A DNA stretch of 64,000 nt from Rhizophagus irregularis (Eukaryota): positions 2,542,001 to 2,606,000 of the forward strand of contig NC_089432.1 of the NCBI RefSeq assembly GCF_026210795.1, in the 5' to 3' direction. The notes under the pieces were generated by a model. It searched no databases, was not told the origin of the DNA, and was given only the letters and a program-made list of their open reading frames with translations. How positions within the stretch are numbered: position 1 is the first letter of the stretch; every line of letters starts with the position of its first letter. Positions 359 through 60,090 of this stretch are shown here, one piece after another. Made by a program: the position numbers and the translations under genes.

Positions 359-847
359 TTCGAAAAAAAAACGAAAAAAAAATTTTTCTTTTTTTTCTTT
401 CTTTTTTTTTTTTAAAGGAATAAAACTTTTTTTAAAAAAATCATATCAGATATATAAATAGGCATAAAAAACATTCTAAATGAAAGTATATAAATAGTTA
501 CAATTCTTTTTAAAAAAAAATGATGTGCGACTGATGTACTACTAAATATACCTATAAAACAATGGTTACATTTCCTAATCCTGCATATTTATTTGTTTTT
601 TCTATTACGCATCTAATACGCATCTTATGTATCACATGCGCCCCTTTGTTGGGTTCCTTCTATAATTGGACAATGAAAAAGGATGTTTTCGGACATCATT
701 TACCGTAAATATTTATAAGTTAACAAAGTTTTATGGAAATGTGAAGGATCTGCTCCGTCATTTACCAAAACTTTTAAGAAAGTGTTTTGTAAAAAACTGG
801 CATATTTTAACTCTTTGTACCCAGGCTTTGTTGAAATTACTTTTGAT

Positions 848-3190: not shown

Positions 3191-3192
3191 TT

Positions 3193-6100
3193 ATGACAGA
3201 CAACCATAATACTAATATTTCCAATCAATTAAATATATATAACTCCCCCCTAACTAGCAATAATGAAAAAAGAAAAAGTGATGATCCTGTCCATATACGT
3301 AATTACAAAAAAAGAATTAAAAGAAAAAAGAACAATAAAAATGATAATATTACTATTAACAATAATGATGATAATATTTTGAATGAGGAATTAGAAGATA
3401 AAATTAATCAAACAAATGTAGTAAATAATACAAAAGCGTTTTTCAATGTGGGAACTCTCAATATTAGAGGAATGACGAAATTAAAAATGATGAATATTAA
3501 AGATACGTTAACGAAATATAATTTTGATGTTTTAGCGGTTACTGAAACAAAAATTAATATTAAATATGGAAAATTTTTAACGCAAGAAGTTGGAATTAAC
3601 AAAAATTATACAATATTTGGAACAATAGATAATACCAATATTAATAGTACAGGACTCTTAGTTTTTATTAAAAATAATATAGCAAATCACGTGACCAAAG
3701 TTCAAAATCATATGGGAAGAATATTAGAAATAAATCTTAATTTTAGCAAACATAACAAATTATCGATAATATCAATATACAATAAAAGTGGTAATTCAGC
3801 TGAGGCAAGGAATTTACAACAAACTATTAATCAATTAGTGATAAATATGATTAAAGATGCGCGAAGGAATCAATATCAGATAATGCTATTAGGAGATTTC
3901 AACCTCAGATACGCTAAATATGAAAAATTAAAAAATAGAGGCGTTAGAATAAACAATCAACTTAGTATCTTTAAATATCTGGAAAACCATGATTTTATAG
4001 ATGTCCATAAAGATTCTTTAGAAATAGATGATCAGCAACTAATGGAACGCTTTAGCACATTTAGCAATTATACTACATTCTCTCGTATTGATTATATATG
4101 GATGACGAATAATCTTTATAATGCAGTAATAAAAACAAATATAGTAGAATATAATAAAATGGATACTGACCATAGGCTAATATATGTTAGATTAAACAGA
4201 GGAATCATAATTTCACAACCATCATTATCAACCAAAATAAAAAGATCTTATAGAGTAAAATATCACTATGAGGAATTAAATGATGATGATAAACAGATGA
4301 TCACTGACACAGCCACTAAGGAATTAGAAAATAGGTTAAAAAATTATAAACCTAATAATATAGAAGAGAAATGGAATATTTATAACCATGTGATTTCTAC
4401 AACAAAGAAAAGTCATATAAAGCATAGCGAAATTAAAATATCTTTTGAAAGAGAAGATCAAGATATCAAAAATACGTTGGAATATAGATTTTATAGATAT
4501 ATAGTTTACATTAGAAGGAATTTAAAAAAAGATAAAAAATTCGCAATGATTAAAGACAATTGGAAAATTATAATTAAAAATCTACGCTCTATGATTAAGG
4601 CCTTAGAAATTAATAATGAATTTTATGTGTTAAGTTATAACTTTAGTAAATTTCTTAAGCATACATATTTGAAGGAAATGGAAGAACTATATTCTATAGC
4701 ATATATATTTTTGAATACTGAGATGATTAAGAAGAAAGAACAAAAGATTATGGATGCAATAGCTAAACGACAACAGGATTTAGAATACAATCAAAGACGT
4801 ATGATTGATAATGTTATGGAAAGGGAATTCAAAAAAATTAATATAGATAGGTTAATAGTGCAAGATAAAGATGGAGAAGATATTTTAGTAACGAACGAAG
4901 GGGAAATTAAAAAGTTAGTAGCAAATCATTTCCAGAATTGTGCAGGATCTGTAAATTGCGAAAAGGAAATTCCAGCTGAATGGATTGATGAGTATAGGCC
5001 AAAAGAAGAATTATCTGAATCAATATATGATAGTGTATTAACTCCTATAACTTTAGAAGAAATAATTGAGATAGGAAAAATGTTACCAGGAAAAAAAGCA
5101 AATGGTCCAACAGGAATTTCTTACGAAGATATAAAGCTTACTCTGATACCCTTAAAAGAAATCCTTCAAGAAATATTTAACGAAATATTAGAAACAGGAA
5201 CATTACCAAAAGATTGGCTTCGTGCTCATATATATCCGATACCAAAACCCAAGCCATGGCAATACGATTTGAACAATACACGACCAATTACACTTTTAGA
5301 AACTGCAAGGAAATTTTTTGTTAAAATACTAACAAATAGACTTTCTAAAATTTTTATTACTAACGATATTTTAAAAGGATACCAATTTGCAGGACTCCCA
5401 AAGAAATCAACTTTTGAACCTTTAAGGATAGTTAATGAAATCATCAACTATGCAGAGCAAAATAAAAAAGAGATGTGGTTTCTTATGTTGGATATGTCTA
5501 AGGCCTACGATAGAATTAATATACCAATGCTAAGAAAGGCACTCGAAAGAATAAAAATGCCAAAGAGAATAACACAAATTCTGACAGGATTGTTCACAAA
5601 TAGGACGAATCAAGTCTTTACCCCAACAGGATTGACTGAGCCCTTTGATATGTTAACAGGGATTGATCAAGGTGAAATAATATCACCATTGCTTTGGATA
5701 ATATATTACGACCCCTTACTAGCAAGAATAAGAAATACAAATCTTGGATTTCGAATGGAAGCGAAAGAATATTTGGATGTATATGAAAATGTGTATCGCT
5801 CTAGATCAGTTACATTTCCAGGATGTGCTTATATGGATGATACGGGATTTATCACAAACAACAAATTAAATTTAGAACGAATTTTAAAAATAGCTGATTC
5901 TTTCTATAGATTAAATAACATAAAAATTAATAAGCAAAAATCAGAATTGCTCCTTAGGAAAAATGTTAGTAAAAAGAAACCTTTAGAAAGTGTGGTTAAA
6001 ATCAAATTTGGAGAGGATGAAATAGAAGTTAAACCAACAGCTCGCAACCAATCATCACGATTCTTAGGAGTTTGGATCAACGCCTTTAATGATAATAGAC

Positions 6101-8943
6101 ATGTGGAACAACAAATCAAAAACGAAATCAAAGCAATAATAAAGAATATATCTTGTAGAAAAGGAATTACTGATAAGATGATGATTTATCTTTTCAATAT
6201 GCTGATTATTCCAATAGTTGAATATAGAAGTCAACTATATGTCATAGAAGAACGAGTATTAGAAAAATTAATGGCTCCTTTCAGATCGTTTATTAAAAAT
6301 AGGTTGAAATTTGCGAAAACTGCACCCAACGCGATTTTAGAAACTCATTTTATTTATAATTTGAATAACTTGGTTGCCAATCAAAAACAAGCCAAAATTA
6401 CAAACTTTGTCTTACAGGTTAATGATACAGGTATTCTGGGAAAAATAATGGAAGTTAGATTTATCAACATACAACAACAATTGCTATTAGAAAACCATCC
6501 AATATATGTTATTGATGAAAAGTTAGTTCATAAAATTAAGCAAATTAAAAATATTGGATTTAAATACCATTTTATTTTAAACAATATAAAACTTTTAGTA
6601 GAAAATAATTTTAAATTTGCAAGAAATGATAATATTATGCTTAAATTTAATGTAGAAGGTGGACCAACATTGATTAGAGACGTTGTTTCAAATGGAGTAT
6701 ATATCAAGAATTTTAAAACTTTACAAGATAATAATTTAATCTTTATGGATCAAATCACTACCTTGGATAAAAAATATTTACTATCAATCGAAGAATTAGA
6801 AATGAAGAGATTTGTTAAGCTTTTAAATACAAAAAGAATGTCAAAAAAAAATGGAAAACTTTATGAGAATATATTGGCAGATTTAGCAGACTCTAGGATA
6901 AGTTACAGAATTAAATCAAATATTGTTGAACAAATCTTAGCTGTAGACGAAGTTTATAATCTAAAAGGGACGATTTTATTACCCACCACTGTTTTACCAG
7001 AAAAAGGAGCAACGGTCGTTTCAAAAATGACTAGAGGAGTGTTACAAAATCGAACAGTTTTTGGAAGAATTATTAAAATAGATAGGGATAATAATGTAGT
7101 GTTTTTTAATCATTTTGAAAACTTGACAGATGATTATGAAAAAAATATAATCCTAAGAAAGTGTAAAGGTTGTGAGTTAGGGATAATTAATGCAGATGTA
7201 TTCAAAGGAGAAATTAAAAGTAATTGTTTAATCGTGGAACATATAGAAAGGGTATTTTTACTATCACCATATAGATGGAATAAACAACATCATTCGAAAA
7301 GATTACAAAATTGTACTTATTATTACGAAGGGGTCAGTGTTAATTTCTATGATGAAATGCTTAGATACGATAGTGCTTTTAAAAATAGTATTATACATCA
7401 AAGACTAGATAATAAAGACCTGATTCAATATGATGATAGACGAGATAAAACAGATAATATCGACAAAAATCTGGAAAAAGGAAGTAGATACAATATTGCA
7501 TATCAAAGAATAAAGCGTATTAAGGATAGGATAGCGTTAAATAGTTCAAAGAATATATCTATATATATAGATGGATCAGTTAAGGAAAACAAGACAGAAT
7601 ATATTAAGTCAATTTTTGGGGTTATGATATATGATGAAGATGATAATCTTATAGATAAATACTTTTCAACAGTAGAGCATTGGTTGACTTCAACAAAAGC
7701 AGAAACTATGGCTTTCTTTACTGCACTATTAATGATACAGGATGATAAGAACTATAAGATATATACAGACAGTCAAAATGTAATTAAAAACTATAGGTAT
7801 CTAACTAATAGATGGGAGACAATAACTACAAGGGATCTATTAAAATTTGACAAAAATAATGCCATATGGTTTAATATAAAAGAAATTTTAGATGAATTAT
7901 CACTACATATAGACGTAATTAAAGTAGAGTCTCACTCAGATAACGAATTACATAACACAGTGGATAAAGAAATTAAAGATTGCTACGAAATAGAAGATAA
8001 ACTATCTAACACTTTAGTTACATACAATACAGAACAATATAAATTCCCAGTCTTATGGAATAATTACGTGGTAGAGATGAATTTAAGACGGTTTATTAGA
8101 CTTCTGACTAGAACACAAGGATTGGAAAAATTCTTTAATCTGAATAGAAATTGGAGATATAGAATATTAGATGTTAAATGGGAAATTGTTTTCGCATATA
8201 TTGGACTCCAAATAGAGGGTGAAACAACTTTTAAAACTGATAATTTTATATGTAAACAAAAAAGAATGAAGATACAACGTTTGATAGAAGAAATTCCAAC
8301 AATTGAACAAATGAAGAAATCTTCGTATGATATTTACCGGAATTTTAAATGCGTGTTTTGTCATAAGAAAAAAGAAACCTTTAATCATGTGTGGACATGT
8401 AGATATAATAGAAAAATTTTAAAGCAGATAATAGGACGAACAATAGACACTATGGTTACTTTATTAAAGGAATATGGGGCTACTTTTGATGAAGTACAAA
8501 TACTAACAAATATTAAAAAACTTGATATTTTTTTTCCGAAGTTTAGGGATAACAAGTTTAATTTTGTAGATTTAATTAAAGGCATCTTTCCGATTCAATT
8601 GTATGACTTTATTGGAAACATCTTGGGAATAAATAACAATATGAAGATAATAGAGTTGGGAACAAAGATTTTACAATATGTTATGGATGAAACAAAGAAA
8701 CATATTTGGATACCTCGTTGCGAAAAATTGAAAATAATAGAAAAGAATTATGGGATTAACAAAAAAGATAAGAAAAGAACTGATTCTAAATTTTGTAGAG
8801 AGAAACAAGAAGATATTTTACAATACCCTGAAAATATGTATAGAAGATATGAAGATTTGGAGGGTGTTAAAGAGCATATTTTATTTGGTAAAGAAATCCT
8901 GGATTTTACAGTAGTTGTGAACCGGGTGGGTAAGATAAATTAA
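3193..8943 (+). CDS. LINE ORF2: APE endonuclease, reverse transcriptase, RNase H, C-terminal Cys/His motif
   Basis: APE motifs (TLNIRG, AVTETK, LLGDFN, SRIDYI, TDH); RT motifs (RPITLL, LDMSKAYD, GIDQGEIISPLL, YMDD, FLG); RNase H (YIDGS, AET, YTDSQ, KVESH); CVFC..ETFNHVWTC. Confidence 0.97.
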   Translation: MTDNHNTNISNQLNIYNSPLTSNNEKRKSDDPVHIRNYKKRIKRKKNNKNDNITINNNDDNILNEELEDKINQTNVVNNTKAFFNVGTLNIRGMTKLKMMNIKDTLTKYNFDVLAVTETKINIKYGKFLTQEVGINKNYTIFGTIDNTNINSTGLLVFIKNNIANHVTKVQNHMGRILEINLNFSKHNKLSIISIYNKSGNSAEARNLQQTINQLVINMIKDARRNQYQIMLLGDFNLRYAKYEKLKNRGVRINNQLSIFKYLENHDFIDVHKDSLEIDDQQLMERFSTFSNYTTFSRIDYIWMTNNLYNAVIKTNIVEYNKMDTDHRLIYVRLNRGIIISQPSLSTKIKRSYRVKYHYEELNDDDKQMITDTATKELENRLKNYKPNNIEEKWNIYNHVISTTKKSHIKHSEIKISFEREDQDIKNTLEYRFYRYIVYIRRNLKKDKKFAMIKDNWKIIIKNLRSMIKALEINNEFYVLSYNFSKFLKHTYLKEMEELYSIAYIFLNTEMIKKKEQKIMDAIAKRQQDLEYNQRRMIDNVMEREFKKINIDRLIVQDKDGEDILVTNEGEIKKLVANHFQNCAGSVNCEKEIPAEWIDEYRPKEELSESIYDSVLTPITLEEIIEIGKMLPGKKANGPTGISYEDIKLTLIPLKEILQEIFNEILETGTLPKDWLRAHIYPIPKPKPWQYDLNNTRPITLLETARKFFVKILTNRLSKIFITNDILKGYQFAGLPKKSTFEPLRIVNEIINYAEQNKKEMWFLMLDMSKAYDRINIPMLRKALERIKMPKRITQILTGLFTNRTNQVFTPTGLTEPFDMLTGIDQGEIISPLLWIIYYDPLLARIRNTNLGFRMEAKEYLDVYENVYRSRSVTFPGCAYMDDTGFITNNKLNLERILKIADSFYRLNNIKINKQKSELLLRKNVSKKKPLESVVKIKFGEDEIEVKPTARNQSSRFLGVWINAFNDNRHVEQQIKNEIKAIIKNISCRKGITDKMMIYLFNMLIIPIVEYRSQLYVIEERVLEKLMAPFRSFIKNRLKFAKTAPNAILETHFIYNLNNLVANQKQAKITNFVLQVNDTGILGKIMEVRFINIQQQLLLENHPIYVIDEKLVHKIKQIKNIGFKYHFILNNIKLLVENNFKFARNDNIMLKFNVEGGPTLIRDVVSNGVYIKNFKTLQDNNLIFMDQITTLDKKYLLSIEELEMKRFVKLLNTKRMSKKNGKLYENILADLADSRISYRIKSNIVEQILAVDEVYNLKGTILLPTTVLPEKGATVVSKMTRGVLQNRTVFGRIIKIDRDNNVVFFNHFENLTDDYEKNIILRKCKGCELGIINADVFKGEIKSNCLIVEHIERVFLLSPYRWNKQHHSKRLQNCTYYYEGVSVNFYDEMLRYDSAFKNSIIHQRLDNKDLIQYDDRRDKTDNIDKNLEKGSRYNIAYQRIKRIKDRIALNSSKNISIYIDGSVKENKTEYIKSIFGVMIYDEDDNLIDKYFSTVEHWLTSTKAETMAFFTALLMIQDDKNYKIYTDSQNVIKNYRYLTNRWETITTRDLLKFDKNNAIWFNIKEILDELSLHIDVIKVESHSDNELHNTVDKEIKDCYEIEDKLSNTLVTYNTEQYKFPVLWNNYVVEMNLRRFIRLLTRTQGLEKFFNLNRNWRYRILDVKWEIVFAYIGLQIEGETTFKTDNFICKQKRMKIQRLIEEIPTIEQMKKSSYDIYRNFKCVFCHKKKETFNHVWTCRYNRKILKQIIGRTIDTMVTLLKEYGATFDEVQILTNIKKLDIFFPKFRDNKFNFVDLIKGIFPIQLYDFIGNILGINNNMKIIELGTKILQYVMDETKKHIWIPRCEKLKIIEKNYGINKKDKKRTDSKFCREKQEDILQYPENMYRRYEDLEGVKEHILFGKEILDFTVVVNRVGKIN

Positions 8944-9327
8944 TACAACCATTTCTTGTTGTTTCCATTAATGACTTAATGGAGTTTAGTGCTTTTTGTT
9001 TTGTTTTACTTTAACTTTGGTTGCCGTTGGTAAGGTTTTACGAGTTTAATTCTTTACTAAGGTTTTTTACAAGATTTGTTGTCAGATAGTTTTACTATAG
9101 ACCTTTTATCTGTAAATTGGCACTCTGTACTGGGTTCTCTTTAATAAATAAATATGCGCTTTGCGCCTTTTGCCTACCAAAAAAAAAAAAAAAAAAAAAA
9201 AAAAGTTTTATGGAAATGTTAATTTATTAAAAAAAACTCCTTGCATGAGAAAAAAAAATATTTAACAATTCAAGTTAATCATTATTCCCGAGAAAAGTTC
9301 AAATAAATTTTTTTTTTTTTGCATTTA

Positions 9328-24361: not shown

Positions 24362-27300
24362 TTAAACAAGAAAAATTTTATACAGTAAGTACACTTTAAT
24401 TAATTAGAATTTACGAATATTTTTTTTTTTTTAAAAAAAAATATATTACACACTGTATGTAATTTTAAATTATCAAAATAGTAAATCATTCTATAAATTT
24501 ATTTTCATAAGTTTATATATGAGAATATTACAAGTGATTAATTATCAAAAACCAAATTGGCAAAGCTTATATTGTGTTTTGGAATTTTTTTTTAAAGTTA
24601 GAATCTTCTTAATTTATTACAATATAATAATTTTCCCTATCCGGATTTAATGCATGATTTTCGCTCCCCAGTTTTTTAATCTTATTATTTTGGATAATAA
24701 GATTATTCGTAATTTTTCCGTAAAAGTGTGTCATAATAATCAAATTTATTTTAAACTTAGCAGTGACGGCAAAATCCAAAAAAAATGATATGATTATATC
24801 TACTAAAATGTGTTTAGTTTTGTTTGTAAAAATAGACGTTGCTAAAAAAAAGCAATCGAATCCCAACTTTAGATATATTTTATATATTTGTATGTTCTTT
24901 ATCATATAATTAATAAAATATCTCATTTTACAAAAAAAAAAGCAATCGAATCGGCAAAAAATCACGTGATTATTGGATTTCATATGTGATTAAAGGTCGC
25001 GTGAATAAAAATTTACGATTGATTCTAAAAGTATTAACACGTCATTAATTAGAGTTTATCAGTAAATAATATAAAATATTTAAAGGGGCCAAATCTATTG
25101 TTTCAAGTTGTAAAGAGAAATTCACTGTATTTAGCAACGTAAATGTTATTATCATAAGTCCAAGAGTTTAAATTTAAAAACTTGCAATAAATAAATAATG
25201 ATTTTGTTGTTATTTAGCAAAAAAAAAAAATTAAATATTAATATATAATTCTAAAATTTCAATATTAAAGATTAGACTTCTTTTTCTAAAAAGTAAATTC
25301 ATTCCTGAAATTTCAATGGAAAGTAATATTAATTGTTAATACTTTAAAATTATGACATATGCTAATACTGAAATTTTACCAAAATTAGTACTTTTTGCTA
25401 TTTTGTGGCTAATAAAGAATCAAATTAAAAATTAATATATTCATATAAATCACATTTTAATTAATTGAAAATTATATTTGGAAATTTCACCGGAAATTAT
25501 TTATATGGCAAGGACTTTTATCAAAATTCGGGTAAAAAATTCCTTGATATTATATTAATTGAGGTTGCTAGTTGTTATATACTAAATTGTTAAAGAGAAT
25601 TTTACATGATTTACTTTTTATATAAACTCTTCCGACGCAAAAGTGTGATTAAACTTGACTCTTATATTTAATTTAATATATGCGGGTCAAAACAATTCTG
25701 ACAGTTACAAATATTTGTTGGTAATCATACCATATTCATAAATAGAAGTGGTTTTTTTTACTTTGTAAAAATTAATTTCTGCCGTGGAAATTTTTTATTT
25801 AAAAATGTCTATTAATCTCATGAACGATTTCTTTTATAACAGCGTTGTCAGGTTTGAGCAATTTTAATATAAATTATTGTTCTGAATTTTTTGATTTACC
25901 GAATAACCGTTACCAATTTCATATTATTTCTAGTCCAATTACATGTTATCGTAACACTGTTTGAAATTAAACTGGCCAAAATTAAATTGGCAGTTTTTCG
26001 GGCCGGGCACTTTAGATGCGGGCTGGGCCAGTTGTGAAATAGAGTTCAAAGCAGCTCTAATTTATAGTTATTATGCTTATTTTTAATAAAGTATAATGCA
26101 AAAAAAATTTTTTAGTAGGAAGTAATTTTGCAAAAACAAAAATTCATAAGCAATTTTCCTTCTTCATAAAAACAACCAATTACTAATTAATATGAATGTG
26201 TAATAAATAGTTCTGAAGTTCTGGAATGACTAAATTTATTAGTTAAATTTAAAATTTGGCAAGTTAATCAGATATTAAATTTATTCTTAATTATATATAG
26301 TAAGATTTTATAAACTTTTTGAACGAACTGAATGAAATTATAAAATTAATTCTATCAACATTTGATTTTTAAAGAAATTACAAAGTATTGTTGCTAGGCG
26401 AACAAAGTTTATTACTATATTAATTTTAATTTCACATTACTTGATATAGTTACCTGATAAACCTTACATTTACTTTACCTTGTAGAAAATAATTGAAGTT
26501 CAAAACTTGGTTATCCTTTAACCTTTATTTACAGAATTTTTTAAAAAAAATCTTGCTAATATAACAAAATTAGTTAATAAATATAAGAATATGTATTGCA
26601 TCAACATCTATAGAGCAAATATAAAATGTAATATAAATTTTATAAAGGATAAATTAGTAACATAAAGCTTATATGTCTTATTATACAAAGTAAAATATTA
26701 GCTTAGCAATATAATAATAATGGGTTAATTATTATTGTTTAACTAAATTCTTGTCATAAGTAAAGTGTTTGTAGTTATAAGCAACTATCAATTATAATGA
26801 AAAATTTTTATTTAATATACTAAAACAAATTTAAAATAACTATTATAGTTATAGATATGTTATTGATTTATTTTACATAAATTGTTCTTTTTAAGTTTTT
26901 CCAACTTATATTGGGCATCTTGATCTCCTTGTTCAGCAGATTTTTCGTACCAATAAATTGCTTTATCTATATTTTTAACAATTCCCTTTCCATATTCATA
27001 CATCATAGCAAGATTATATTGTGCTGACTCATGTCCTAAATCTGCAGCCTTTTGATATAATTCAAATGCTTTTTTCATATCAATATCAGTTCCAATTCCT
27101 TTATTATAACAAATTCCTAAACCATATATTGCATCAACATTTCCCAAATCTGCTGCCTTCTGACATAATTCAAATGCTTTTTTCTTATCAATATTAGTTC
27201 CAATTCCATATGCATAACAATATCCTAAATTATTCATTCCAGTTGCATTTCCTAAATCTGCAGCCTTTTGATATAATTCAAATGCTTTTTTCTTATCAAT

Positions 27301-27650
27301 ATCAGTTCCAATTCCTTTACTATAACAAAGTCCTAAATTATATATTGCATTAACATTTCCCAAATCTGCAGCCTTTTGATATAATTCAAATGCTTTTTTC
27401 TTATCAATATCAGTTCCAATTCCATTTTCATAACAATTTCCTAAATCATTTATTCCAGTTGAATTTCCTAAATCTGCAGCCTTTTGATATAATTCAAATG
27501 CTTTCTTCTTATCAATATCAATTCCAATTCTATTTTCATAACAACTTCCTAAATTATACATTGCTGATGAATTTTCTAATTCTGCTGCTTTTTGATATAA
27601 TCCAAATGCTTTTTTCTTATCAATGTCAGTTCCATTTCCAAAATCATAAC

Positions 27651-28826
27651 TAGAGCTCCGCACGGGTCGGGTCGGGTCGGGTAATTTGTCTGACCCGAAC
27701 CGAAAATTTTTATCAGGTCGGGTCGGGTCGGGTAACCTGCTCTGACCCGACCTGACCCGTCTGACCTGAAAGTATTCAGGTCATTTTTCTATAAAATAAT
27801 ATGAAAAAACGCCGTTTTGGCGATTTTTTTCATAAAAGTGGAAAAAAATGCCGTTTCGGCATTTTTCCATTTAAATAATATGAAAAAACGCCGCTTTGGC
27901 GATTTTTTTCATAAAAGAAGTGAAAAAAAAATGCCGTTTTGGCATTTTTACATAAAATAATATGAAAAAACGCCGTTTTGGCGATTTTTTTCATAAAAGA
28001 AGTGAAAAAAAATGCCAAAACGGCATTTTTCCATAAAATAAATGAAAAAATGCCGCTTTGGCGATGTTTTCATAAAAGAAGTGAAAAAAATGCCGCTTTG
28101 GCGATTTTTTTCATAAAAGAAGTGGAAAAAAATGCCGTTTCGGCATTTTTCCATTAAATAATATGAAAAAACGCCGTTTTGGCGATTTTTTTCATAAAAG
28201 AAGTGGGAAAAAATGCCGTTTCGGCATTTTTCCATTAAATAATATGAAAAAACGCCGTTTTGGCGATTTTTTTCATAAAAGAAGTGGGAAAAAATGCCGT
28301 TTCGGCATTTTTCCATAAAATAATATGAAAAAAGCCGCTTTGGCGATTTTTTTCATAAAAGAAGTGAAAAAAAATGCCAAAACGGCATTTTTCCATAAAA
28401 TAATATGAAAAAACGCCGTTTTGGCGATTTTTTTTCATAAAAGAAGTGAAAAAAAATGCCGAAACGGCATTTTTCCATAAAATAATATGAAAAAACGCCA
28501 TTTTGGCGATTTTTTTCATAAAGAAGTGAAAAAAATGCCGAAACGGCATTTTTCCATAAAATAAAATGAAAAACGCCATTTCGGAGTATTTGTTTATAAA
28601 AAACAATGCCGAAACGGCGTTTTTTTCATAAGGTAACATGAAAAAACGCCGTTTCAGAGTATAAACATTTTTTTTGAGCTAAAGTATTCGGGTTAACAGG
28701 TCAATCGGGTCGGGTCAAACCTGTAACCCGACCTGATACCGGGTCACGAATTTGACAACCTGACCTGAATATTTCGGGTCAACCCGACGGGTCACCCGAA
28801 TTGACCCTTACCCGTGCGGAGCTCTA
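27651..28826. mobile_element. Non-autonomous hAT element with internal tandem hairpin array
   Basis: TIR TAGAGCTCCGCACGGGT / ACCCGTGCGGAGCTCTA; 8-bp TSD ATCATAAC (27643-27650, 28827-28834); GGGTC/GACCC subterminal motifs; absent from the paralog. Confidence 0.93.
27790..28660. repeat. ~81-bp tandem array (~10 units), each with two ~40-bp palindromic subunits
   Basis: Unit ~AAAATAATATGAAAAAACGCCGTTTTGGCGATTTTTTTCATAAAAGAAGTGAAAAAAAATGCCGTTTCGGCATTTTTCCAT. Confidence 0.93.
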
Positions 28827-31800
28827 ATCATAACAATGTCCTAAATTATTTATTCCTAATGAATTTCCTAAATCTGCTGCCTTTTGAAATAATTCAAATG
28901 CTTTTTTCTTATCAATATCAGTTCCAATTCCTTTTTCATAACAATGTCCTAAATTATTTATTCCAAATGAATTTCCTAAATCTGCTGCTTTTTGATATAA
29001 TTCAAATGCTTTTTTCTTATCAATATCAGTTCCATTTCCACAATCATAACAATATCCTAAATCATTTATTCCTAATACATTTCCTAAATCTGCTGCTTTT
29101 TGATAAAACTCAAATGCTTTTTGCTTATTAACACTAATCCCAATTCCTAATTCATTAAATTTTCCAAGTAAGTAAATAGAATTTGAGTTATTTTGATTAT
29201 TTAATAATAAATTATTAATCTCTTGCAAAGTTATATTTTGTTCATTAAGATAACTTAAGGTCTTTAGTTTTGCTACTTCATCATTATCATTAAAAAAATT
29301 GAACATATTATTAACTATTATATTAAAGTTATCCCAAATTGGTTACTTGATGACATTGAAGATTCTATTTCTTTTGTATTCATCATATTAAAATTTTGAA
29401 TAACTTGAGATAATTCTCCATGTAATGAATTAGTACTTTCAGAAATTTTAACATCTAAATCAGGTAGTTGATGGTTATTTGATGATTGGACAGTATTGTG
29501 ATCATCATATAAGTGAAAATCCTTTATATTTATATTTTCCTTTATTATAAGTACTTTTAATTCATCAACTACTTGGTTAATGGTTGGACGATTATCAGGT
29601 TCAATATTCCAACAATCTACAAAAAAGAACGTCTTTAATTAATTAAAATCAACATTGTTTGTAAGTCATAGTTAAATTGTATTTACCGGCATAAATTTTT
29701 ATATAATCTGTAGACGTATTGGGAATAGGTGTCTCTCTGAGGCCTTGTAGAATACTTAGAGCCAAGCCAACATCATACGGTATATTATGAAAAGGAGGCT
29801 GACCACTAGATATCTCCCATAGTAATACTCCAATGCTATAAACATCACTTTTTTTATTTAATAAATATAATTCTGTTGTACTTCTATTAAAGCTTTTTGG
29901 ATCAGCGTAAGGAATTAATCCAAATGTTTTCGATTGAGAGTTAGATGTTTCCTCAATTCTTTTTGATAAACCAAAATCTGCTAGCTTAATAGTATTCTGA
30001 TGGACTAACACATTATTGGAGTGCTATCAATATTAAATTAACGTTAAAATAAGAAAATCATTAAAATAAAACACATAGTAATAAATTGTAAAATATCTAC
30101 CAAATCACGGTGCACGATCCCTTTATCATGCAAACATGATACTGCATAAACCAATTGAAATGCGAGATTAAATTTATTGTCCCAAGTGAGATTTTCAAAA
30201 TTTTCTTTCAAATATTTTCGGAGGGTACCATTTTCTGCATATTCTATCACCAACGAATATTCTTTTTTTTGGTTTTCTTTTTAAAAAAAAACAAATTTTA
30301 TTGATCAATTAATTATTATATTTTATGAAATAAATAATATTAAGAATATATCATACCTTTAATAGAAGTTGTGACACCATAAAAACGAATAACATTATGA
30401 AAATCAACTTCACGTTGAAGTTGAATCTAGGTAATAAATAAATTATTACATCAAAAACTCAAATATTTATAATAATAATGAAAAATGTTTGACATTATAA
30501 TTACCTCACGAACTAATGCTTTGACTGTAGCATCATTAATATTAAAAAAAGATTTTATTGCATAACGCTTATGAGAATTCTTCCAATTAGCACGATAAAC
30601 TTTTCCAAAACCACCAGAACCAATTTCTTGAATATCATAAAATTGGTCATACTCATAATACTTAATAAGTTTTTTAGAAATCTCTTCTTCAATCCATTTA
30701 TTCCAATCATTTGAATTGCTAACAAGTTCAGGCTGTTCAGCGTTATTAGACATTGTTTGGTACGAAAAAAATTTTACTGCGGAATTTAAATTTATGCTTT
30801 TCGAAAATTGAAAAAAAAATATAAATATTTTTTTTTGTTTCAACTATTTATGTTTAGCTATTTATAAATAAATTTTTTTTTTTGTCTAACTATTTATAAA
30901 TATTTTTTTTTTTATTTATGAATGATTTTTAACTATTTATAAATAATTTTTTTTGTTTTACTATTTATAAATATGGTATCACTGAACGCCAAAGGCAACT
31001 GTCGATCATTTTACTTCTAATTTAAGTTAGATCATCAAACTTTGATGTTTTAACTTCTAATTTTTTAATTATCTGTGTGAAATAATTAATAAAATGAATT
31101 TTAATAATTTTATTTTAACTCTTCATTTAAATAATTTAATAAATATTTTAAAAATTCATTTTTTACTCCGCAAAAGTGTGCAAATTATGATAGAAACATT
31201 ATATTTCAACAACAATAAAATATTGTTTATCATATATTCATATTTGAAATTAAGGAATTATAATTAATATGACGAGGAAGCTCAAGATCTTTAAGCCACA
31301 ATGACTAATTGGAGTAATCAAAATAAAAGATCATATAACCTATAATTATATCAAATTACAATATTATCGATCTACAATCTTCATATAAATAAATTTTTTG
31401 TACGAAAGAGGTTAATTTTATTCCCACAAAAAAAGAATAACCATTAACGTGTTTAAAAAATCATAAATTATTGCCATCAGTATTTATATTTCTGATTAAT
31501 AATTTAACAATATTCTAAAAATTTTATTGTAACAAAAATTTCTTTATAAAATTTTAATCAAATAAAAATTCATTGTATCTCAGTCCTAATACAATAAAAG
31601 CAAATAATATTATTGTGAGGTTTAATCTAGATCCTAAAAAAAAAATTTTATTAAAAAAAATTTCTTTAGTGATGGATTTAATTTAAGGTAAAAGTACTCT
31701 CATATTCGTAATATTAGATTTTTGAAAGTTTCTCCATTTGTTTGAATTAATTATTTTTTTTAAACGGTGATTTGTTTGTTGATCACCGATATTATTATGC

Positions 31801-34328: not shown

Positions 34329-37137
34329 TTAATTTATTTTACATAAATTGTTCTTTTTAAGTTTTTTCAACTTGTATTGAGCATCTTGATCTCCTTGTTC
34401 AGCAGATTTTTCGTACCAATAAATTGCTTTATCTATATTTTTAACAATTCCCTTTCCATATTCATACATCATAGCAAGATTATATTGTGCTGACTCATGT
34501 CCTAAATCTGCAGCCTTTTGGTATAATTCAAATGCTTTTTTCATATCAATATCAGTTCCAATTCCTTTATTATAACAAATTCCTAAACCATATATTGCAT
34601 CAACATTTTCCAAATCTGCTGCCTTCTGACATAATTCAAATGCTTTCTTCTTATCAATATTAGTTCCGATTCCATATGCATAACAATATCCTAAATTATT
34701 CATTCCAGTTACATTTCCTAAATCTGCAGCCTTTTGATATAATTCAAATGCTTTTTTCTTATCAATATCAGTTCCAATTCCTTTACTATAACAAAGTCCT
34801 AAATTATATATTGCATCAACATTTCCCAAATCTGCTGCCTTTTGATATAATTCAAGTGCTTTCTTCTTATCAATTTCAGTTCCAATTCCATTTTCATAAC
34901 AATTTCCTAAATCATTTATTCCAGTTGAATTTCCTAAATCTGCTGCTTTTTGATATAATTCAAATGCTTTCTTCTTATCAATATCAATTCCAATTCTATT
35001 TTCATAACAACTTCCTAAATTATATATTGCTGATGAATTTTCTAATTCTGCTGCCTTTTGATATAATTCAAATGCTTTCTTCTTATCAATATCAGTTCCA
35101 ATTCCATCATCATAACAATGTCCTAAATTATTTATTCCTAATGAATTTCCCAAATCTGCTGGCTTTTGATATAATTCAAATGCTTTTTTCTTATCAATAT
35201 CAGTTCCAATTCCTTTTTCATAAAAATGTCCTAAATTATTTATTCCAAATGAATTTCCTAAATCTGCTGCTTTTTGATATAATTCAAATGCCTTTTTCTT
35301 ATCAACATCAGTTCCAATTCCTTCTTCATAACAATCTCCTAAATTATATATTCCCATTGAATTTCCTAATTCTGCTAACTTTTGATATAATTCAAATGCC
35401 TTTTTCTTGTCAATATCAGTTCCAATTCCATTTTTATAACAATACCCTAAATCATTTATTCCAAATGGATTTCCTAAGTCTGCTGCCTTTTGATATAATT
35501 CAAATGCTTTATGCTCACTAACATTAACACCAATTCCTAAATCATTAAATTTTCCAAGTAAATAAATAGAATTTGAGTTATTTTGATTATTTAATAATAA
35601 ATTATTAATCTCTTGCAAAGTTATATTTTGTTCATTAAGATAATTTAAGACCTTTTGCTTTGCTACTTCATCATCATCATAAAAAAAATTGAACATATTA
35701 TTAACTATTATATCAAAGTTATCCTCAAATTTGTTAATTGATGATATTGAAGATTCAATATCTTTTGTAGTATTCATCATATTAAAATTTTGAATAACTT
35801 GAGATAATTCTCCATGTGATGAATTAGTACTTTCAGAAATATTTAAATTAGGCAGTTGATGGTCATTTAATGATTGGACATTATTGGTATCATTATACAA
35901 GTGAAAATCTTTTATAATTATGTTTTCTTTTGTTATGATCACTTTTAATTCATCAACAACTTGATTAATAGTTGGACGATTATCAGGTTCAATATTCCAA
36001 CAATCTACAAAAAAGAACGTCTTCAATTAATTAAAATCAACATTGTTTATAAGTCATAGTTAAATTGTATTTACCGGTATAAATTTTTATATAATCTATA
36101 GACGTATTTGGAAGAGATGTCTCTCTGAGGCCTTGTAGAATACTTAGAGCCAAACCATCATCACACGGTATACCATGAAAAGGAGGCTGACCACTAGATA
36201 TCTCCCATAGTAATACTCCAATGCTATAAACGTCACTTTTTTTATTTAATAAATATAATTCTGTTGTACTTCTATTAAAGCTTTTTGGATCAGCGTAAGG
36301 AATTAATCCAAATGTTTTCGATTGAGAGTTAGATGTTTCCTCAATTCTTTTTGATAAACCAAAATCTGCTAGCTTAATAGTATTCTGATGGACTAACACA
36401 TTATTGGAGTGCTATCAATATTAAATTAACGTTAAAATAAGAGAATCATTAAAATAAAACACATAATAGATTGTAAAATATCTACCAAATCACGGTGCAC
36501 GATCCCTTTATCATGCAAACATGATACTGCATAAACCAATTGAAATGCGAGATTAAATTTATTGTCCCAAGTGAGGTTTTCAAAATTTTCTTTCAAATAT
36601 TTTCGGAGGGTACCATTTTCTGCATATTCTATCACCAACGAGTATTCTTTTTTTTGGTTTTCTTTTTAAAAAAAAAAATTTTTTATTGATCAATTAATTA
36701 TTATATTTTATGAAATAAATAATATTAGAATATATCATACCTTTAAAAGAAGCTGTGACACCATAAAAACGAATAACATTATGAAAATCAACTTCACGTC
36801 GAAGTTGAATCTAGGTAATAAATAAATTATTACATCAAAAACTAAAATATTTATAATAATAATGAAAAATGTTTGACATTATAATTACCTCACGAACTAA
36901 TGCTTTGACTGTAGCATCATTAATATTAAAAAAAGATTTTATTGCATAACGCTTATGAGAATTCTTCCAATTAGCACGATAAACTTTTCCAAAACCACCA
37001 GAACCAATTTCTTGAATATCATAAAATTGGTCATACTCATAATACTTAATAAGTTTTTTAGAAATCTCTTCTTCAATCCATTTATTCCAATCATTTGAAT
37101 TGCTAACAAGTTCAGGCTGTTCAGCGTTATTAGACAT
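34329..37137 (-). CDS. Kinase-Sel1 protein K3 (5 exons, 11 Sel1 repeats), apparently intact
   Basis: Exons ~37137-36889, 36810-36741, 36661-36487, 36412-36076, 36005-34329; GSGGFGKV, AIK, HRDLHSNN, DFG, SDVYSIG; frame kept across GT-AG junctions. Confidence 0.9.
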
Positions 37138-56099: not shown

Positions 56100-57128
56100 T
56101 AGTGTTGCCGGCCGTAATAGTTGTAACAGGTTGTAAAGGTTGTAACGTATTGCCGTAAAGTTGTAACGTTTTGCCGTAATTTTCTAACCAGTTGTAATTG
56201 ATGTAATGTTCGTAATTGGTGTAACATACAAAATAGCTAATTTTTAAAATAGATGTAACCATTAATAACGGATGTATTGATTTTATTATAAAATGGCATT
56301 TAATCCTTAAAAAATAAGAAAACTCACGTGAATTTTCTTAATTATCTTTATTAATGATACTTAAATCTTGATCATTGTGAATTATCGCATATCCGATATG
56401 TAATTGGATTATCAACTCTTTTCTAGGGAAATGAACAAGTTAATATTTTTTTTTATTGTTTTACTTTTATTTTCAATCTTTTTCTTTTGGTTGATCTCAT
56501 TTTATTTAGCAGATTCTTGGTTCTTTACGGACTATGGAAAAGATAGGTCTTTCTATTTAGGAACGTAACTAATTTCTTTTTTGTTTTCTTTTTTGTAGAA
56601 ATGCTTTGGACTTTCGGACTATTTGAAATGGGATTTTTGTAGTAATTTGAAAGGTGTTTTTCTTAATAAGAGTAAAAGCATGTGAATTTCTATTACTGGT
56701 AATTTACCATTGGTAGTATTATTTCATTACATTAGTATTGAGATAAATAAAAAAAAGAATGTAATGAAAATTTTCCATTTTAATAATTTACCGACATGGT
56801 TTGTGACATTTTTTTAAAAAAATACACGAGTAAAAATTATAAATTAGATTTTTTGCATTCATTCATAGGAAAAATTACGTCACTTATAATCAAAAACTTG
56901 ATTTTTATTGAACTATTTTCATCATAATTTAGTTAATAGCAGAATTACGTCATGTGTTTATAATCAAATATAATTTACCGATCTACAACTTAATTACAAC
57001 TTACAGCATAATTACGTATTACAACTCTAATACGGCACTTTACAACTTTTGCCGTAGTTGTAAATCAGGGTTACAACCCAAGTTGTAATCCAAAATGCCG
57101 TAATTGTTACTTACGGCCGGCAACACTA
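56100..57128. mobile_element. Non-autonomous hAT element, 1029 bp
   Basis: Perfect 18-bp TIR TAGTGTTGCCGGCCGTAA; 8-bp TSD ATGTTTTT (56092-56099, 57129-57136); GTTGTAA/CCGTAA subterminal repeats. Confidence 0.94.
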
Positions 57129-57367
57129 ATGTTTTTTACTGATAGCTTCTTCAATCCAATTAATCCATTCATCCACATTTTCATTATTTTGCATTTTGTT
57201 ACTATTGTTTATTATTCGAAATAGTGAATAGAGTAAGCAATAAAAATTTTGACGGGAAAAGAAATTAAAATTACTCCCAAAATACCACGAAACGTAAAAA
57301 TGTGTATTAATATAAATAGTACAAAGCAGGATTTTACTTGTTTTGGCTTCGGTTGGTTAACCGTTAT

Positions 57368-59644
57368 TTTATTTTATTTATTTTATTATTTTTTATTTTA
57401 TTACTAGAAGAGTAGTACTCCAAAACTATTACAAATAAAAGAAAGACAACATTTACATGTTCTACAACTAATATACGTGCATAGAATTTTGGACGTTAAT
57501 CCCCTACGGGACCTCACCCTTCGGACTATCTATTCAAAAAGCTAGGACTATGCTAACCTTTCAAATGGGCAATGAAACTAAAGACGAACAAAAAGAAACC
57601 TAAAAAAAAGAATTCAAGTCAAGTCATCCGTATTTTTCTTTTAACTAGAAACTAGTTATTGTATGTAAATACTGTCATATACAAAATGGTGTATCCTTAT
57701 AGGTCCGTAATTGTTTTTTAAGGGTAAAACTATATATTAGAGTAATCAAAGATCCTGCCCAGGTGAGGGCGGGATTTCAACTTTTTTTCTTTTGTTCCTC
57801 ATTAGAGGTCGTTGGAGTCTTCCTTTATCATCATCAATCTCGTCAGGAGGGGGTGTACGGCGATGAAAGAAAATATTATTATCATTAATAATTTCCAGGT
57901 GAGCATCTGATATAAAAAAAATATTTTTGTCTTTGTCGATCGGTGGTAAATATTCAGTGATTAGAGGACATGAACGTCTCAGTATATAATCATCATAAAG
58001 TTGTTTAGCTTTGGTATATCCATAGTTGTATTGAGGGATGACACGTTAAAACGTCATCGAACTTTATAATCAAAAAGATTAATATGGTATGTATTATTAT
58101 AAAACACTCGGGGATCACCATTAAAATCTGGAGGTAAAGGTGGTAGTGACTTCTTGAGTTTATTTCGTTTTTTAATTCTACGTAGCCAATTCTTGGCACG
58201 TTTCAAATTTATCTTTTCCTTATTACTTCTTCCTTCATAAGATGGATGTATTGAGCCACGTTCAGCAACATGGCTTAGTTGATTAAAAACAACTGATTGT
58301 GTGTAATGATCACGTCCTGGCCTGAGTAAATAAGGTTTATTATAATGAATTCTTCATTCAGAATTGATGATGCATTGTTTCAAATGATTCCAACGTTTGA
58401 TTTGTTGTGGTGAGCGAACGATGTCAAATTCAAGATTTCTATATTCTTTATAGAAAGGTCGAAGCGTGGGGATACCTTTCTTTGATAAAGTGATGGTTGG
58501 CTCCATAATTTCTTTCAAATTTTGATTATTGTTACCTTTGTAAGGTCGGTATCTTTTGATTACAACTTCATATTTCACGCCTAGTCGTGTTGAATGAACT
58601 TTTTTGGCTCGGGGATTATCAGTCAAGCATTTGTTACAAAGCAGGATTACTAGGAAATTTTGAATTGGTTTGTATATTTAAATTGACATTTTTTATATTT
58701 AAGAGGTGTGTTTGACATTTCCATCGATTTCTAGATAGAACGAAAGCTGCAGGTTGATCACAGTGTTTACCAAATCCAAATGAATTATTCATACCACATG
58801 GTAGATAGAATCCCAGGTAGATCACGTGGGAACCAGAACTAAATCTAATAAAAGTATTGGTTTGTCTATTTTTAATATTATCAGAAGATAATCTATTTTT
58901 AATTGCTAAAAATTTTACTAATAATAGTTGGCGTAAACGTTTAAAATATTTTTTAACGGTTTCAGGTGAAAATTGTCGATTAATAGCAAATGTGAAGGTG
59001 AGGTATGTCCCTATTAGGTAGTTGATGTTAAGTTTTTTACTACTTGAATTGAAGATCCTTTGATGATCACGAGTCATTTCAATATCATTGGTGCAAACGG
59101 TAAAAAAATTTTTCCTTGTTAGATCTAGATCAGCATGTTGATCTAACTCAATGAGGAAATATTGAGCTTTTTTGGTGTTGTATAGTGTACCACTGCCACG
59201 TGTATCAGTGATTTCATATGGGTTGATTCTCTTCGTGTGAAAGGAAAAAGAGTAAGTATTGCAAGGGCGGTATAAACGAACAATAGCTTTGGAGCCTTCT
59301 AGAGGTCCTTTGGAGTGGGAGTTCTCTGTACATAAGTTCTTTTGAGAGGTTTCCATATTCGTTATAAAGAGAAGAGGGTATTTATAAATACCAGTGTGAG
59401 CCAAAAATTGTTCCTTATTATGTATATGAAAAACAGCAGGAAGAAAATATGACAAAAAAAACTATGTAAAAATATTGGGTATATCTTTCGAAAGTAAATA
59501 AAGTGTATGTCTTTTAAAAGTAAATAAAGTGTATAAAAGTTCTCTTTCCAATATTAAGTGGAAAAGAAAGTTTTTGTAATAATAAAAATTAAAACGTCCA
59601 ACTTTGTAAATTTTGTTCCAGATTTTTGTGGGAAAGAGTTTCCC
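57368..59644 (-). mobile_element. RT-less, protein-coding retroposed element (2.28 kb)
   Basis: 13-bp TSD GGTTAACCGTTAT (57355-57367, 59645-59657); (TAAAA)n-like 3' tail; related uninterrupted site at ~50698 upstream of K5. Confidence 0.85.
57746..59356 (-). pseudogene. Decayed ORF (~535 codons) of unknown function inside the retroposed element
   Basis: ATG 59356 (METSQK...). Track ORFs 58634-59455 and 58354-58626 join via a frameshift; reading continues past TGA stops, and after a further frameshift ends ...IPPSPGQDL* at 57746. Confidence 0.65.
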
Positions 59645-60090
59645 GGTTAACCGTTATGGCAATGCATATTGCATTATTGTTAAAATTGATTTCAAACCAC
59701 GTGAAATGTCACGTGATTTTTCGTGACCTTTTCGGTCTTTTTTTTAGACCAAATTATTTTTTAAAATATTTGTCCCTTTGGTCTTTGTGTTTAGACCGAA
59801 ATTATTTTTTTCGGTCTTTTTAGATCGAATCTTTTTTTGTAATATTTTTTTTTTATTTTTAAAACCGATATTTTAAAGATATTTTTCGTTCCAGGTTTTT
59901 TTTTAAGAATTTTTCTAACTATCACCGGAGGTGATGTTCACCGGTGACTGAAATTATGACGATCGACCAGCATTAAAAAATATAGTGCCGGTAAAAATTG
60001 ATAATTCTGGCCAACGGTGATGATCACCCCAGTAAAAAACTTTTTTTAAATTCGAATTTTTTGAATTTATTAACATTAATAAAAAGACTT

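What the first reader, a model, noticed from the sequence alone, without database searches (positions are those of the whole stretch)
57355..59657. RT-less retroposon encoding an unknown protein, with TSD, A-rich tail and 5' hairpin
Seen: a 2.28-kb intronless insertion with a 13-bp TSD and a (TAAAA)n-like tail. Its minus-strand 5' end is a perfect hairpin GGGAAA-CTC-TTTCCC. It has ~290 nt of leader, one decayed ~535-codon basic ORF (YLGFYLPC...CDQPA...WKCQTH; HSTRLGVKY) and a GC-richer 3' UTR. No RT, endonuclease or gag motif is visible, and the 3' end does not obviously match the LINE at 743-9201. Established: TSD plus tail indicates target-primed reverse transcription. Inference: a non-autonomous protein-coding family mobilised in trans by a LINE, a separate segment of a bipartite retroelement, or a retro-captured viral/selfish RNA.
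Basis: partly seen in the sequence, partly recalled or inferred. Interest (0 to 1): 0.8.

Follow-up and report, generated by a model that had tools for sequence, protein, structure and literature searches.

The report
Fungal jumping gene carrying unknown protein
This is a broken copy of a small mobile element of mycorrhizal fungi that has no copying enzyme of its own, was likely pasted in from RNA by a borrowed LINE reverse transcriptase, and carries a conserved basic protein predicted to bind zinc, which suggests that a large family of 'orphan genes' in these fungi are really selfish retroposons.

Summary
The insertion is real: an exact 13-bp TSD (57355-67 / 59645-57), an A/T tail, one 537-codon reading path broken by two frameshifts and internal stops, and no RT. 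A diverged, low-depth contig joins both flanks with one partial target copy. It is not single-copy: one named Rhizophagus irregularis assembly holds three genes of this subfamily on three scaffolds and three 96-97% identical 526-aa genes of another. Ten listed contigs in three runs share the 5'-terminal 34 nt but run into other flanks; the 3' ~120 nt is also shared. The protein is a distant branch of the DUF8211-named proteins (HHalign 99.3%, E 3e-20): 410 clusters at 50% identity, a near-invariant C-C-C-H set, pI ~10, signs of purifying selection, no known fold, no match to the neighbouring LINE's ORF1. The 'hairpin' is not a family trait: other copies stop sharing sequence at AAACTC, so GGG is a junction addition. 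Best reading (0.6): a non-autonomous, protein-coding retroposon, working like HAL1 but not a member. Main rival: repeated capture of an RNA-virus segment. No description was found in 10 paper searches.

The parts
59645..59657 (-). 5'-side target-site duplication, ATAACGGTTAACC on the element strand
   Evidence: chance 6 of 20000
59642..59644 (-). GGG found in this copy only; it completes the hairpin; inferred to be a junction addition (snap-back or untemplated)
   Evidence: other copies stop matching at 59641 (one at 59642)
59608..59641 (-). conserved 5'-terminal 34 nt (AAACTCTTTCC...), inferred internal promoter/initiator
   Evidence: shared by 10 listed foreign contigs in 3 runs; same 11-mer upstream of 30%-identical relatives L003/L004
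59357..59607 (-). rest of the 5' leader, U-rich, differs between subfamilies
57746..59356 (-). decayed 537-codon ORF, distant DUF8211-type protein with C-C-C-H motif; two frameshifts, two further in-frame stops
57561..57745 (-). upstream part of the 3' UTR
57408..57560 (-). 3'-terminal segment shared by many diverged copies, weakly structured; inferred RT-recognition signal
   Evidence: many contigs over 57408-57528, up to 12 at one site in X24; z about -2; no Rfam family at threshold
57368..57403 (-). A/T tail of TAA/TAAA/TAAAA units running into the ATAA start of the TSD
57355..57367 (-). 3'-side target-site duplication

Best explanation
This is a decayed full-length copy of a multi-copy, single-ORF element without reverse transcriptase, which was likely copied into the genome from its RNA by a LINE's enzyme acting in trans and whose basic protein is predicted to bind zinc and to bind that RNA. 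Steps: (1) shown - defined shared 5' edge, conserved 3' segment, tail, TSD, dispersed near-identical copies; (2) weakly supported - the element is transcribed as its own 2.2-kb unit from an internal promoter in the 5' 34 nt; (3) inferred - a LINE ORF2p primes on the A/T tail at a nicked target (tail units match the ATAA start of the TSD) and copies the RNA to its 5' end, where three G were added; (4) inferred - the protein coats or escorts its own RNA, like an ORF1p, which would explain why a selfish element keeps it under selection. The partner LINE is probably not the poly(A)-tailed LINE in this window.
For: TSD and tail. Empty-site-like joint 57343>59670 with one partial TSD in run X24. Shared 5' edge with other flanks: 4 of 4 contigs laid in X1, 2 of 4 in X24, 4 of 8 listed (11 laid) in X13. 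Three genes of this subfamily on three scaffolds of one assembly (POG74671, POG66385, POG59553) and three 526-aa genes of another (POG72973, POG73210, POG77134), 96-97% identical to the first. Nine groups at 80% identity among 24 core domains. Selection: 14 third, 8 first and 3 second codon positions among 25 listed differences (p 0.016), and pN/pS 0.27 over 173 codons of L003/L004. C, C, C, H conserved in 95-98% of 64 aligned sequences; pI 9.4-10.5 in 39 long members. Two runs guessed to be RNA, from two studies, cover the body and not the 5' flank (weak hint).
Against: TSDs and tails were seen for this copy only; no DNA of a second full copy could be fetched. The empty-site contig has depth 3.6, lacks 16 nt next to the TSD and diverges on both sides, so it may be a paralogous site. 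No partner LINE was identified and the 3' end shares nothing with the local LINE. The RNA label of X3/X8 is a guess, and contig holes also occur in the DNA run X1. RNA binding is inferred from charge and a motif alone. Copy number per subfamily is low (about 3), which also fits repeated capture from an outside RNA.
Confidence: 0.6

Rival explanations
1. The copies are endogenised segments or mRNAs of an unrecognised RNA virus or satellite of mycorrhizal fungi, captured again and again by LINE reverse transcriptase; the protein is a viral RNA-binding protein and the genomic copies do not propagate themselves.
For: Conserved termini around a very diverged ORF; many deep lineages with few copies each; 14 intact unnamed relatives that I picked lie on contigs only 0.4-1.0 kb longer than the ORF (short contigs are the norm, so this is weak); basic protein.
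Against: Contigs in two RNA-guessed runs match this defective genomic copy (X3: 1978 nt, 0 differences), which points to transcription from the genome; near-identical dispersed copies within one assembly; every organism-named hit among the 20 distant clusters looked up is Glomeraceae (7 of 20 named to organism); no rod-like fold or 5'-3' panhandle.
Confidence: 0.17
2. A host gene family with a cellular function that expands by ordinary retrocopying; this copy is a processed pseudogene of an expressed paralogue.
For: Purifying selection; intact members in R. irregularis, R. clarus and Glomus cerebriforme.
Against: Copies carry the same 5' edge into new flanks; the element is missing from some runs of the same organism label (4 of 24 runs at share 0.00; not proof of absence); many gene models skip parts of the ORF, as decayed copies do; no intron-bearing parent was seen, though DNA of other loci was not available.
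Confidence: 0.13
3. A HAL1-like deletion derivative, or one half of a bipartite element, of a LINE not present in this window, with the protein being that LINE's ORF1 or an accessory ORF.
For: Same anatomy as HAL1 (PMC5753468, passages); fungal precedent for LINE-ORF1-derived gene families (EKA, PMC4641428, abstract); one gene model, P0010, joins an RT fragment to the protein.
Against: No similarity to ORF1 or ORF2 of the window's LINE (HHalign prob 0.1; HMM scans); no RRM or CCHC match in 76 Pfam scans of ORF pieces and relatives; P0010's RT breaks off after the RVT_1 domain and is 1 of 258 proteins, as expected of an insertion into a LINE.
Confidence: 0.1

Closest known systems
HAL1 (half-L1) non-autonomous non-LTR retrotransposons (PMC5753468, passages)
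   Same: single ORF, no RT, dependent on a LINE
   Different: HAL1 encodes L1 ORF1p and derives from L1; this protein matches no LINE protein tested and the 3' end does not match the local LINE
DUF8211 / PF26638-named proteins of Glomeraceae (names)
   Same: homologous over 255 columns (prob 99.3, E 3e-20); shared C-C-C-H and SxRLG motifs
   Different: 26-34% identity in the core, separate clade; family members here are not labelled PF26638; listed as domain of unknown function, with no mobile role found in print
Blumeria Eg-R1 / BG_Non-LTR elements (PMC6022598, section on Eg-R1 read)
   Same: fungal, non-autonomous, Pol II-like retroelements with conserved 5' regions in an obligate biotroph
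   Different: Eg-R1 yields a 74-aa peptide and has no genomic poly(A); this element has a conserved 535-aa ORF and a tail
EKA family of Blumeria (PMC4641428, abstract)
   Same: large 'gene family' that turned out to be retroelement-borne
   Different: EKA are truncated LINE ORF1 copies; here no parent LINE is known
Endogenous non-retroviral RNA-virus elements made by LINE RT, such as EBLN (recalled)
   Same: single ORF, TSD, tail, extra 5' G
   Different: no viral homologue found here; copies appear to spread and be transcribed from the genome

Membership tests
Non-autonomous non-LTR retroposon (TPRT product) | Target-site duplication | tested here: met
   13 bp exact; this copy only
Non-autonomous non-LTR retroposon (TPRT product) | 3' A-rich or simple-repeat tail | tested here: met
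Non-autonomous non-LTR retroposon (TPRT product) | No RT or endonuclease encoded | tested here: met
Non-autonomous non-LTR retroposon (TPRT product) | Dispersed copies with common ends and different flanks | tested here: met
   5' end shown, dispersed genes; 3' flanks of other copies not readable
Non-autonomous non-LTR retroposon (TPRT product) | Empty target site exists | tested here: inconclusive
   one low-depth, diverged contig
Non-autonomous non-LTR retroposon (TPRT product) | Partner LINE shown to mobilise it | not testable with these tools
   no whole genome held; needs a retrotransposition assay
HAL1 | ORF homologous to a LINE ORF1p | tested here: inconclusive
   no match to the one LINE in the window and no RRM/CCHC; other LINE families of the genome not available
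HAL1 | Ends shared with the parent LINE | tested here: not met
   against the window's LINE only
SINE | Small-RNA-derived head, non-coding, short | tested here: not met
   no Rfam match at gathering score; 2.28 kb with a selected ORF
DUF8211 (PF26638) | Homology to PF26638-labelled proteins | tested here: met
DUF8211 (PF26638) | Passes the Pfam model threshold | not testable with these tools
   the local Pfam copy returns nothing even for labelled proteins
Retrozyme / viroid-like or obelisk-like RNA | Self-cleaving ribozyme | tested here: inconclusive
   no ribozyme among 5 weak Rfam hits
Retrozyme / viroid-like or obelisk-like RNA | Rod-like, highly paired RNA | tested here: not met
   54% paired; -422 against -403 +/- 12 kcal/mol in 6 shuffles
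Endogenous RNA-virus element | Homology to a viral protein | tested here: inconclusive
   no hit in BFVD, IMG/VR or PHROGs

The most novel reading that the evidence does not exclude
The DUF8211 'orphan gene' superfamily of arbuscular mycorrhizal fungi (at least 410 clusters at 50% identity) is an old, independent class of RT-less, protein-coding retroposons: each has its own internal promoter and its own zinc-binding protein of a fold not yet described, unrelated to LINE ORF1, with which it hijacks LINE reverse transcriptase. It would be a satellite of LINEs with its own conserved gene, or the genomic trace of an unknown RNA replicon.
Probability: 0.4. Interest if true: 0.82.

Novelty: new variant of a known kind. 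Interest (0 to 1): 0.66.

Why it matters
About 24% of the R. irregularis genome is unclassified repeat and many high-copy orphan genes are methylated like transposons (PMC8647823, passages); a curated library kept elements by their transposition domains (PMC11075540, passages), which an element like this lacks. If DUF8211-type genes are retroposons, part of the orphan gene content of these plant symbionts is selfish DNA, and the question of why a non-autonomous element keeps a protein becomes testable with a protein that owes nothing visible to a LINE.

Tried and rejected
No whole genome was held, so copies could not be counted directly. Locus searches with the family profile found nothing in metagenome, viral or prokaryote contigs; a broader profile gave 4 short loci. 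Structure: models of P0007 (pLDDT 62, pTM 0.41) and of the N-terminal 240 aa (pLDDT 67, pTM 0.67) gave no match at E <= 0.001 in Foldseek PDB (first model only) or BFVD; best VIA Z 5.3 (kinase N-lobe-like sheet, rmsd 4.4, 77 residues) and 3.7, below the level that means anything; this does not show a new fold. PDB sequence searches were blank, as were the Atlas and PHROGs. A group I intron-like or hairpin-ribozyme-like reading of the 3' UTR (motifs recalled) had no Rfam support. A 9-bp 5'-3' complement was rejected: 398 of 3000 shuffles reach it. The hairpin as a conserved signal was rejected. Leader similarity to L003/L004 beyond the terminal motif is marginal (9 and 11 of 300 shuffles as good). 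Runs X21-X24 with share 0.00: X21 lacks cover of the flanks as well, so it says nothing. Earlier-findings look-ups by sequence and place were empty. Paper searches found no description of this element; supplements (such as TE libraries of PMC11075540) were not read and may hold it as an unclassified or SINE/LINE consensus.

Full report
Observation. On the minus strand the insert runs from 59644 to 57368 between two exact copies of a 13-mer, at 59645-59657 and 57355-57367; the 13-mer occurs nowhere else in the window, and random 60-nt window pairs at that spacing share a comparable 13-mer in 6 of 20000 trials. The 3' end is an A/T-only tail of TAA/TAAA/TAAAA units that runs into the ATAA start of the duplication. 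After a 288-nt leader, ATG 59356 opens a 537-codon path to TGA 57746 with frameshifts near 58636 and 58036 and in-frame stops at 58354 and 58054. Pfam finds nothing in 4 of 4 pieces, Rfam nothing at gathering score. The rest of the window holds no second copy.

Host and family. All organism-named hits among the 25 and 51 homologues of two searches are Rhizophagus irregularis; intact-looking members are about 526-537 aa. Among 24 core domains there are 14 groups at 90% and 9 at 80% identity (2 of 30 intended rows dropped for lack of the anchor motif, and rows with gapped cores left out beforehand). One named assembly has three genes of this copy's subfamily on three scaffolds, and three 526-aa genes of another subfamily, two of them 96-97% identical to the third. 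So the family is dispersed, recently amplified and low in copy number per lineage.

Ends. Laying public contigs on the 5' junction was the most telling test. All 4 contigs laid in run X1, 2 of 4 in X24 and 4 of the 8 listed (11 laid) in X13 match only 59608/10-59641/2, with 1-4 differences, and go on into unlike sequence on both sides; some loci recur between runs, so these are not ten separate loci. The shared edge is 59641, not 59644: the grouped loose ends continue TTT on the plus strand, and one locus has a single C. The family therefore seems to begin (AAA)AAACTCTTTCC, and the GGG that makes the hairpin belongs to this copy. Fold-back of the cDNA end onto its own GGGAAA would give exactly this; snap-back after full-length cDNA synthesis is described for R2 insertions (PMC11371274, passages), and untemplated C opposite a cap is the alternative (recalled). 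The 11-mer AAACTCTTTCC occurs once in the 64-kb window, and once, on the coding strand about 0.6 kb before the conserved part of the ORF, in two metagenome relatives of only 30% protein identity (20 and 24 of 20000 shuffles; the two share upstream sequence and count as one event, and I chose the motif after seeing it). At the 3' end, many diverged contigs pile on 57408-57528 (summed depth about 300 against 85 on the body in X1; up to 12 contigs at a site in X24). Tails and 3' flanks of other copies could not be read, because the tool cuts reads at that repeat. One X24 contig joins left-flank sequence, one partial target copy and right-flank sequence without the insert, but it has depth 3.6, lacks 16 nt and diverges on both sides: an empty-site-like sequence, not a clean one.

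Transcription. X3 and X8, from two studies and guessed to be RNA, hold contigs over the body (X3 57658-59635, no differences) and nothing on the 5' flank, where DNA-labelled runs go on. The label is a guess and DNA runs have holes too, so this is a weak hint of a stand-alone transcript from an internal promoter.

Protein. A gene model that fuses a family member to a PF26638 domain (P0024) led to 14 PF26638-labelled proteins. Their profile aligns to the family over 255 columns (prob 99.3, E 3e-20; window piece against P0056 29%, E 5e-15), while forming a separate clade. A joint profile finds 410 clusters at 50% identity (281 at E <= 1e-10). Of 20 distant clusters looked up, 7 are named to organism (R. 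irregularis, R. clarus, R. diaphanus, Glomus cerebriforme) and 13 are not. In 64 aligned members C182, C192, C207 and H210 are 95-98% conserved, there is no well-kept acidic triad (one Asp at 73%), and the 39 long members have pI 9.4-10.5. Differences to a diverged copy fall 14/8/3 on third/first/second codon positions (25 of the listed rows; 34 rows of that table were not shown), and L003 against L004 gives pN/pS 0.27. Only 1 of 258 fetched proteins has an RT motif. Nothing links the protein to the window's LINE, whose ORF1 has RRM and CCHC and whose ORF2 has endonuclease, RT and RNase H. Two predicted models found no fold match.

Mechanism. Shown: a unit with fixed 5' edge, conserved 3' segment, tail and TSD; dispersed near-identical copies; a selected ORF; no RT. 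From established knowledge: TSD plus tail is the mark of target-primed reverse transcription, so the enzyme must come in trans. Inferred: internal Pol II promoter in the first 34 nt, RT recognition in the last 120-150 nt, tail-target pairing at ATAA, and a zinc-binding basic protein that acts on its own RNA. The local LINE has a pure poly(A) tail and an unrelated 3' UTR, so another LINE, or a relaxed one, is the likely partner. I give this 0.6, viral or satellite capture 0.17, a retrocopying host gene family 0.13, a derivative or half of an unseen LINE 0.1.

Comparison. It works like HAL1, which is non-autonomous and encodes only ORF1p (PMC5753468, passages), but membership is not shown: the protein matches no LINE protein tested. 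Eg-R1 of Blumeria is a fungal non-autonomous Pol II-type element but encodes only a short peptide (PMC6022598, one section); EKA genes are LINE ORF1 fragments (PMC4641428, abstract). Three AM-fungal TE papers, searched by passage, do not describe such an element (PMC8647823, PMC11075540, PMC11952901; supplements not read), and DUF8211 or PF26638 appears in 0 papers.

Verdict. A real and well-described insertion; a new variant of non-autonomous retroposon whose interest lies in its conserved, non-LINE protein and in what it implies for the DUF8211 orphan genes. The step from this one TSD-flanked copy to the whole superfamily is not shown and needs whole genomes. Interest 0.66.

Noticed in passing
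window 743-9201 (+): Full-length LINE with both ORFs open (ORF1 RRM + CCHC; 1928-aa ORF2 endonuclease-RT-RNase H), 18-bp TSD at 725-742 / 9202-9219, starts with G, ends in poly(A); looks young.
   Followed up: partly
window 57130-57250 and 59900-60030: Short very high-copy repeats either side of the insert (summed depth up to 18790 in X1), with a 14-nt inverted match 57128-57141 / 60030-60043; the element may sit inside a larger non-autonomous DNA element.
   Followed up: no
window 13156-62801: Cluster of Sel1-repeat/kinase-type and F-box-like ORFs (family names read from the translations, not scanned); 26860-29342 and 34329-36026 look like near duplicates.
   Followed up: no
window 58054-58056 and protein P0002/P0072: Two Logan ORFs of the same subfamily end at the same residue as this copy's stop, so a defective copy may have been a template, or copies convert one another.
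   Followed up: partly
proteins P0009, P0013, P0016, P0024, P0032, P0039, P0046: A subfamily of gene models has an acidic N-terminal extension, and P0024 runs on into a second DUF8211 domain: possible longer or nested elements.
   Followed up: no
run X1, contig of 835 nt at 59608-59642: One sister copy's 5' junction has depth 360 against 18-80 for the others, so it lies in an amplified or collapsed region.
   Followed up: no
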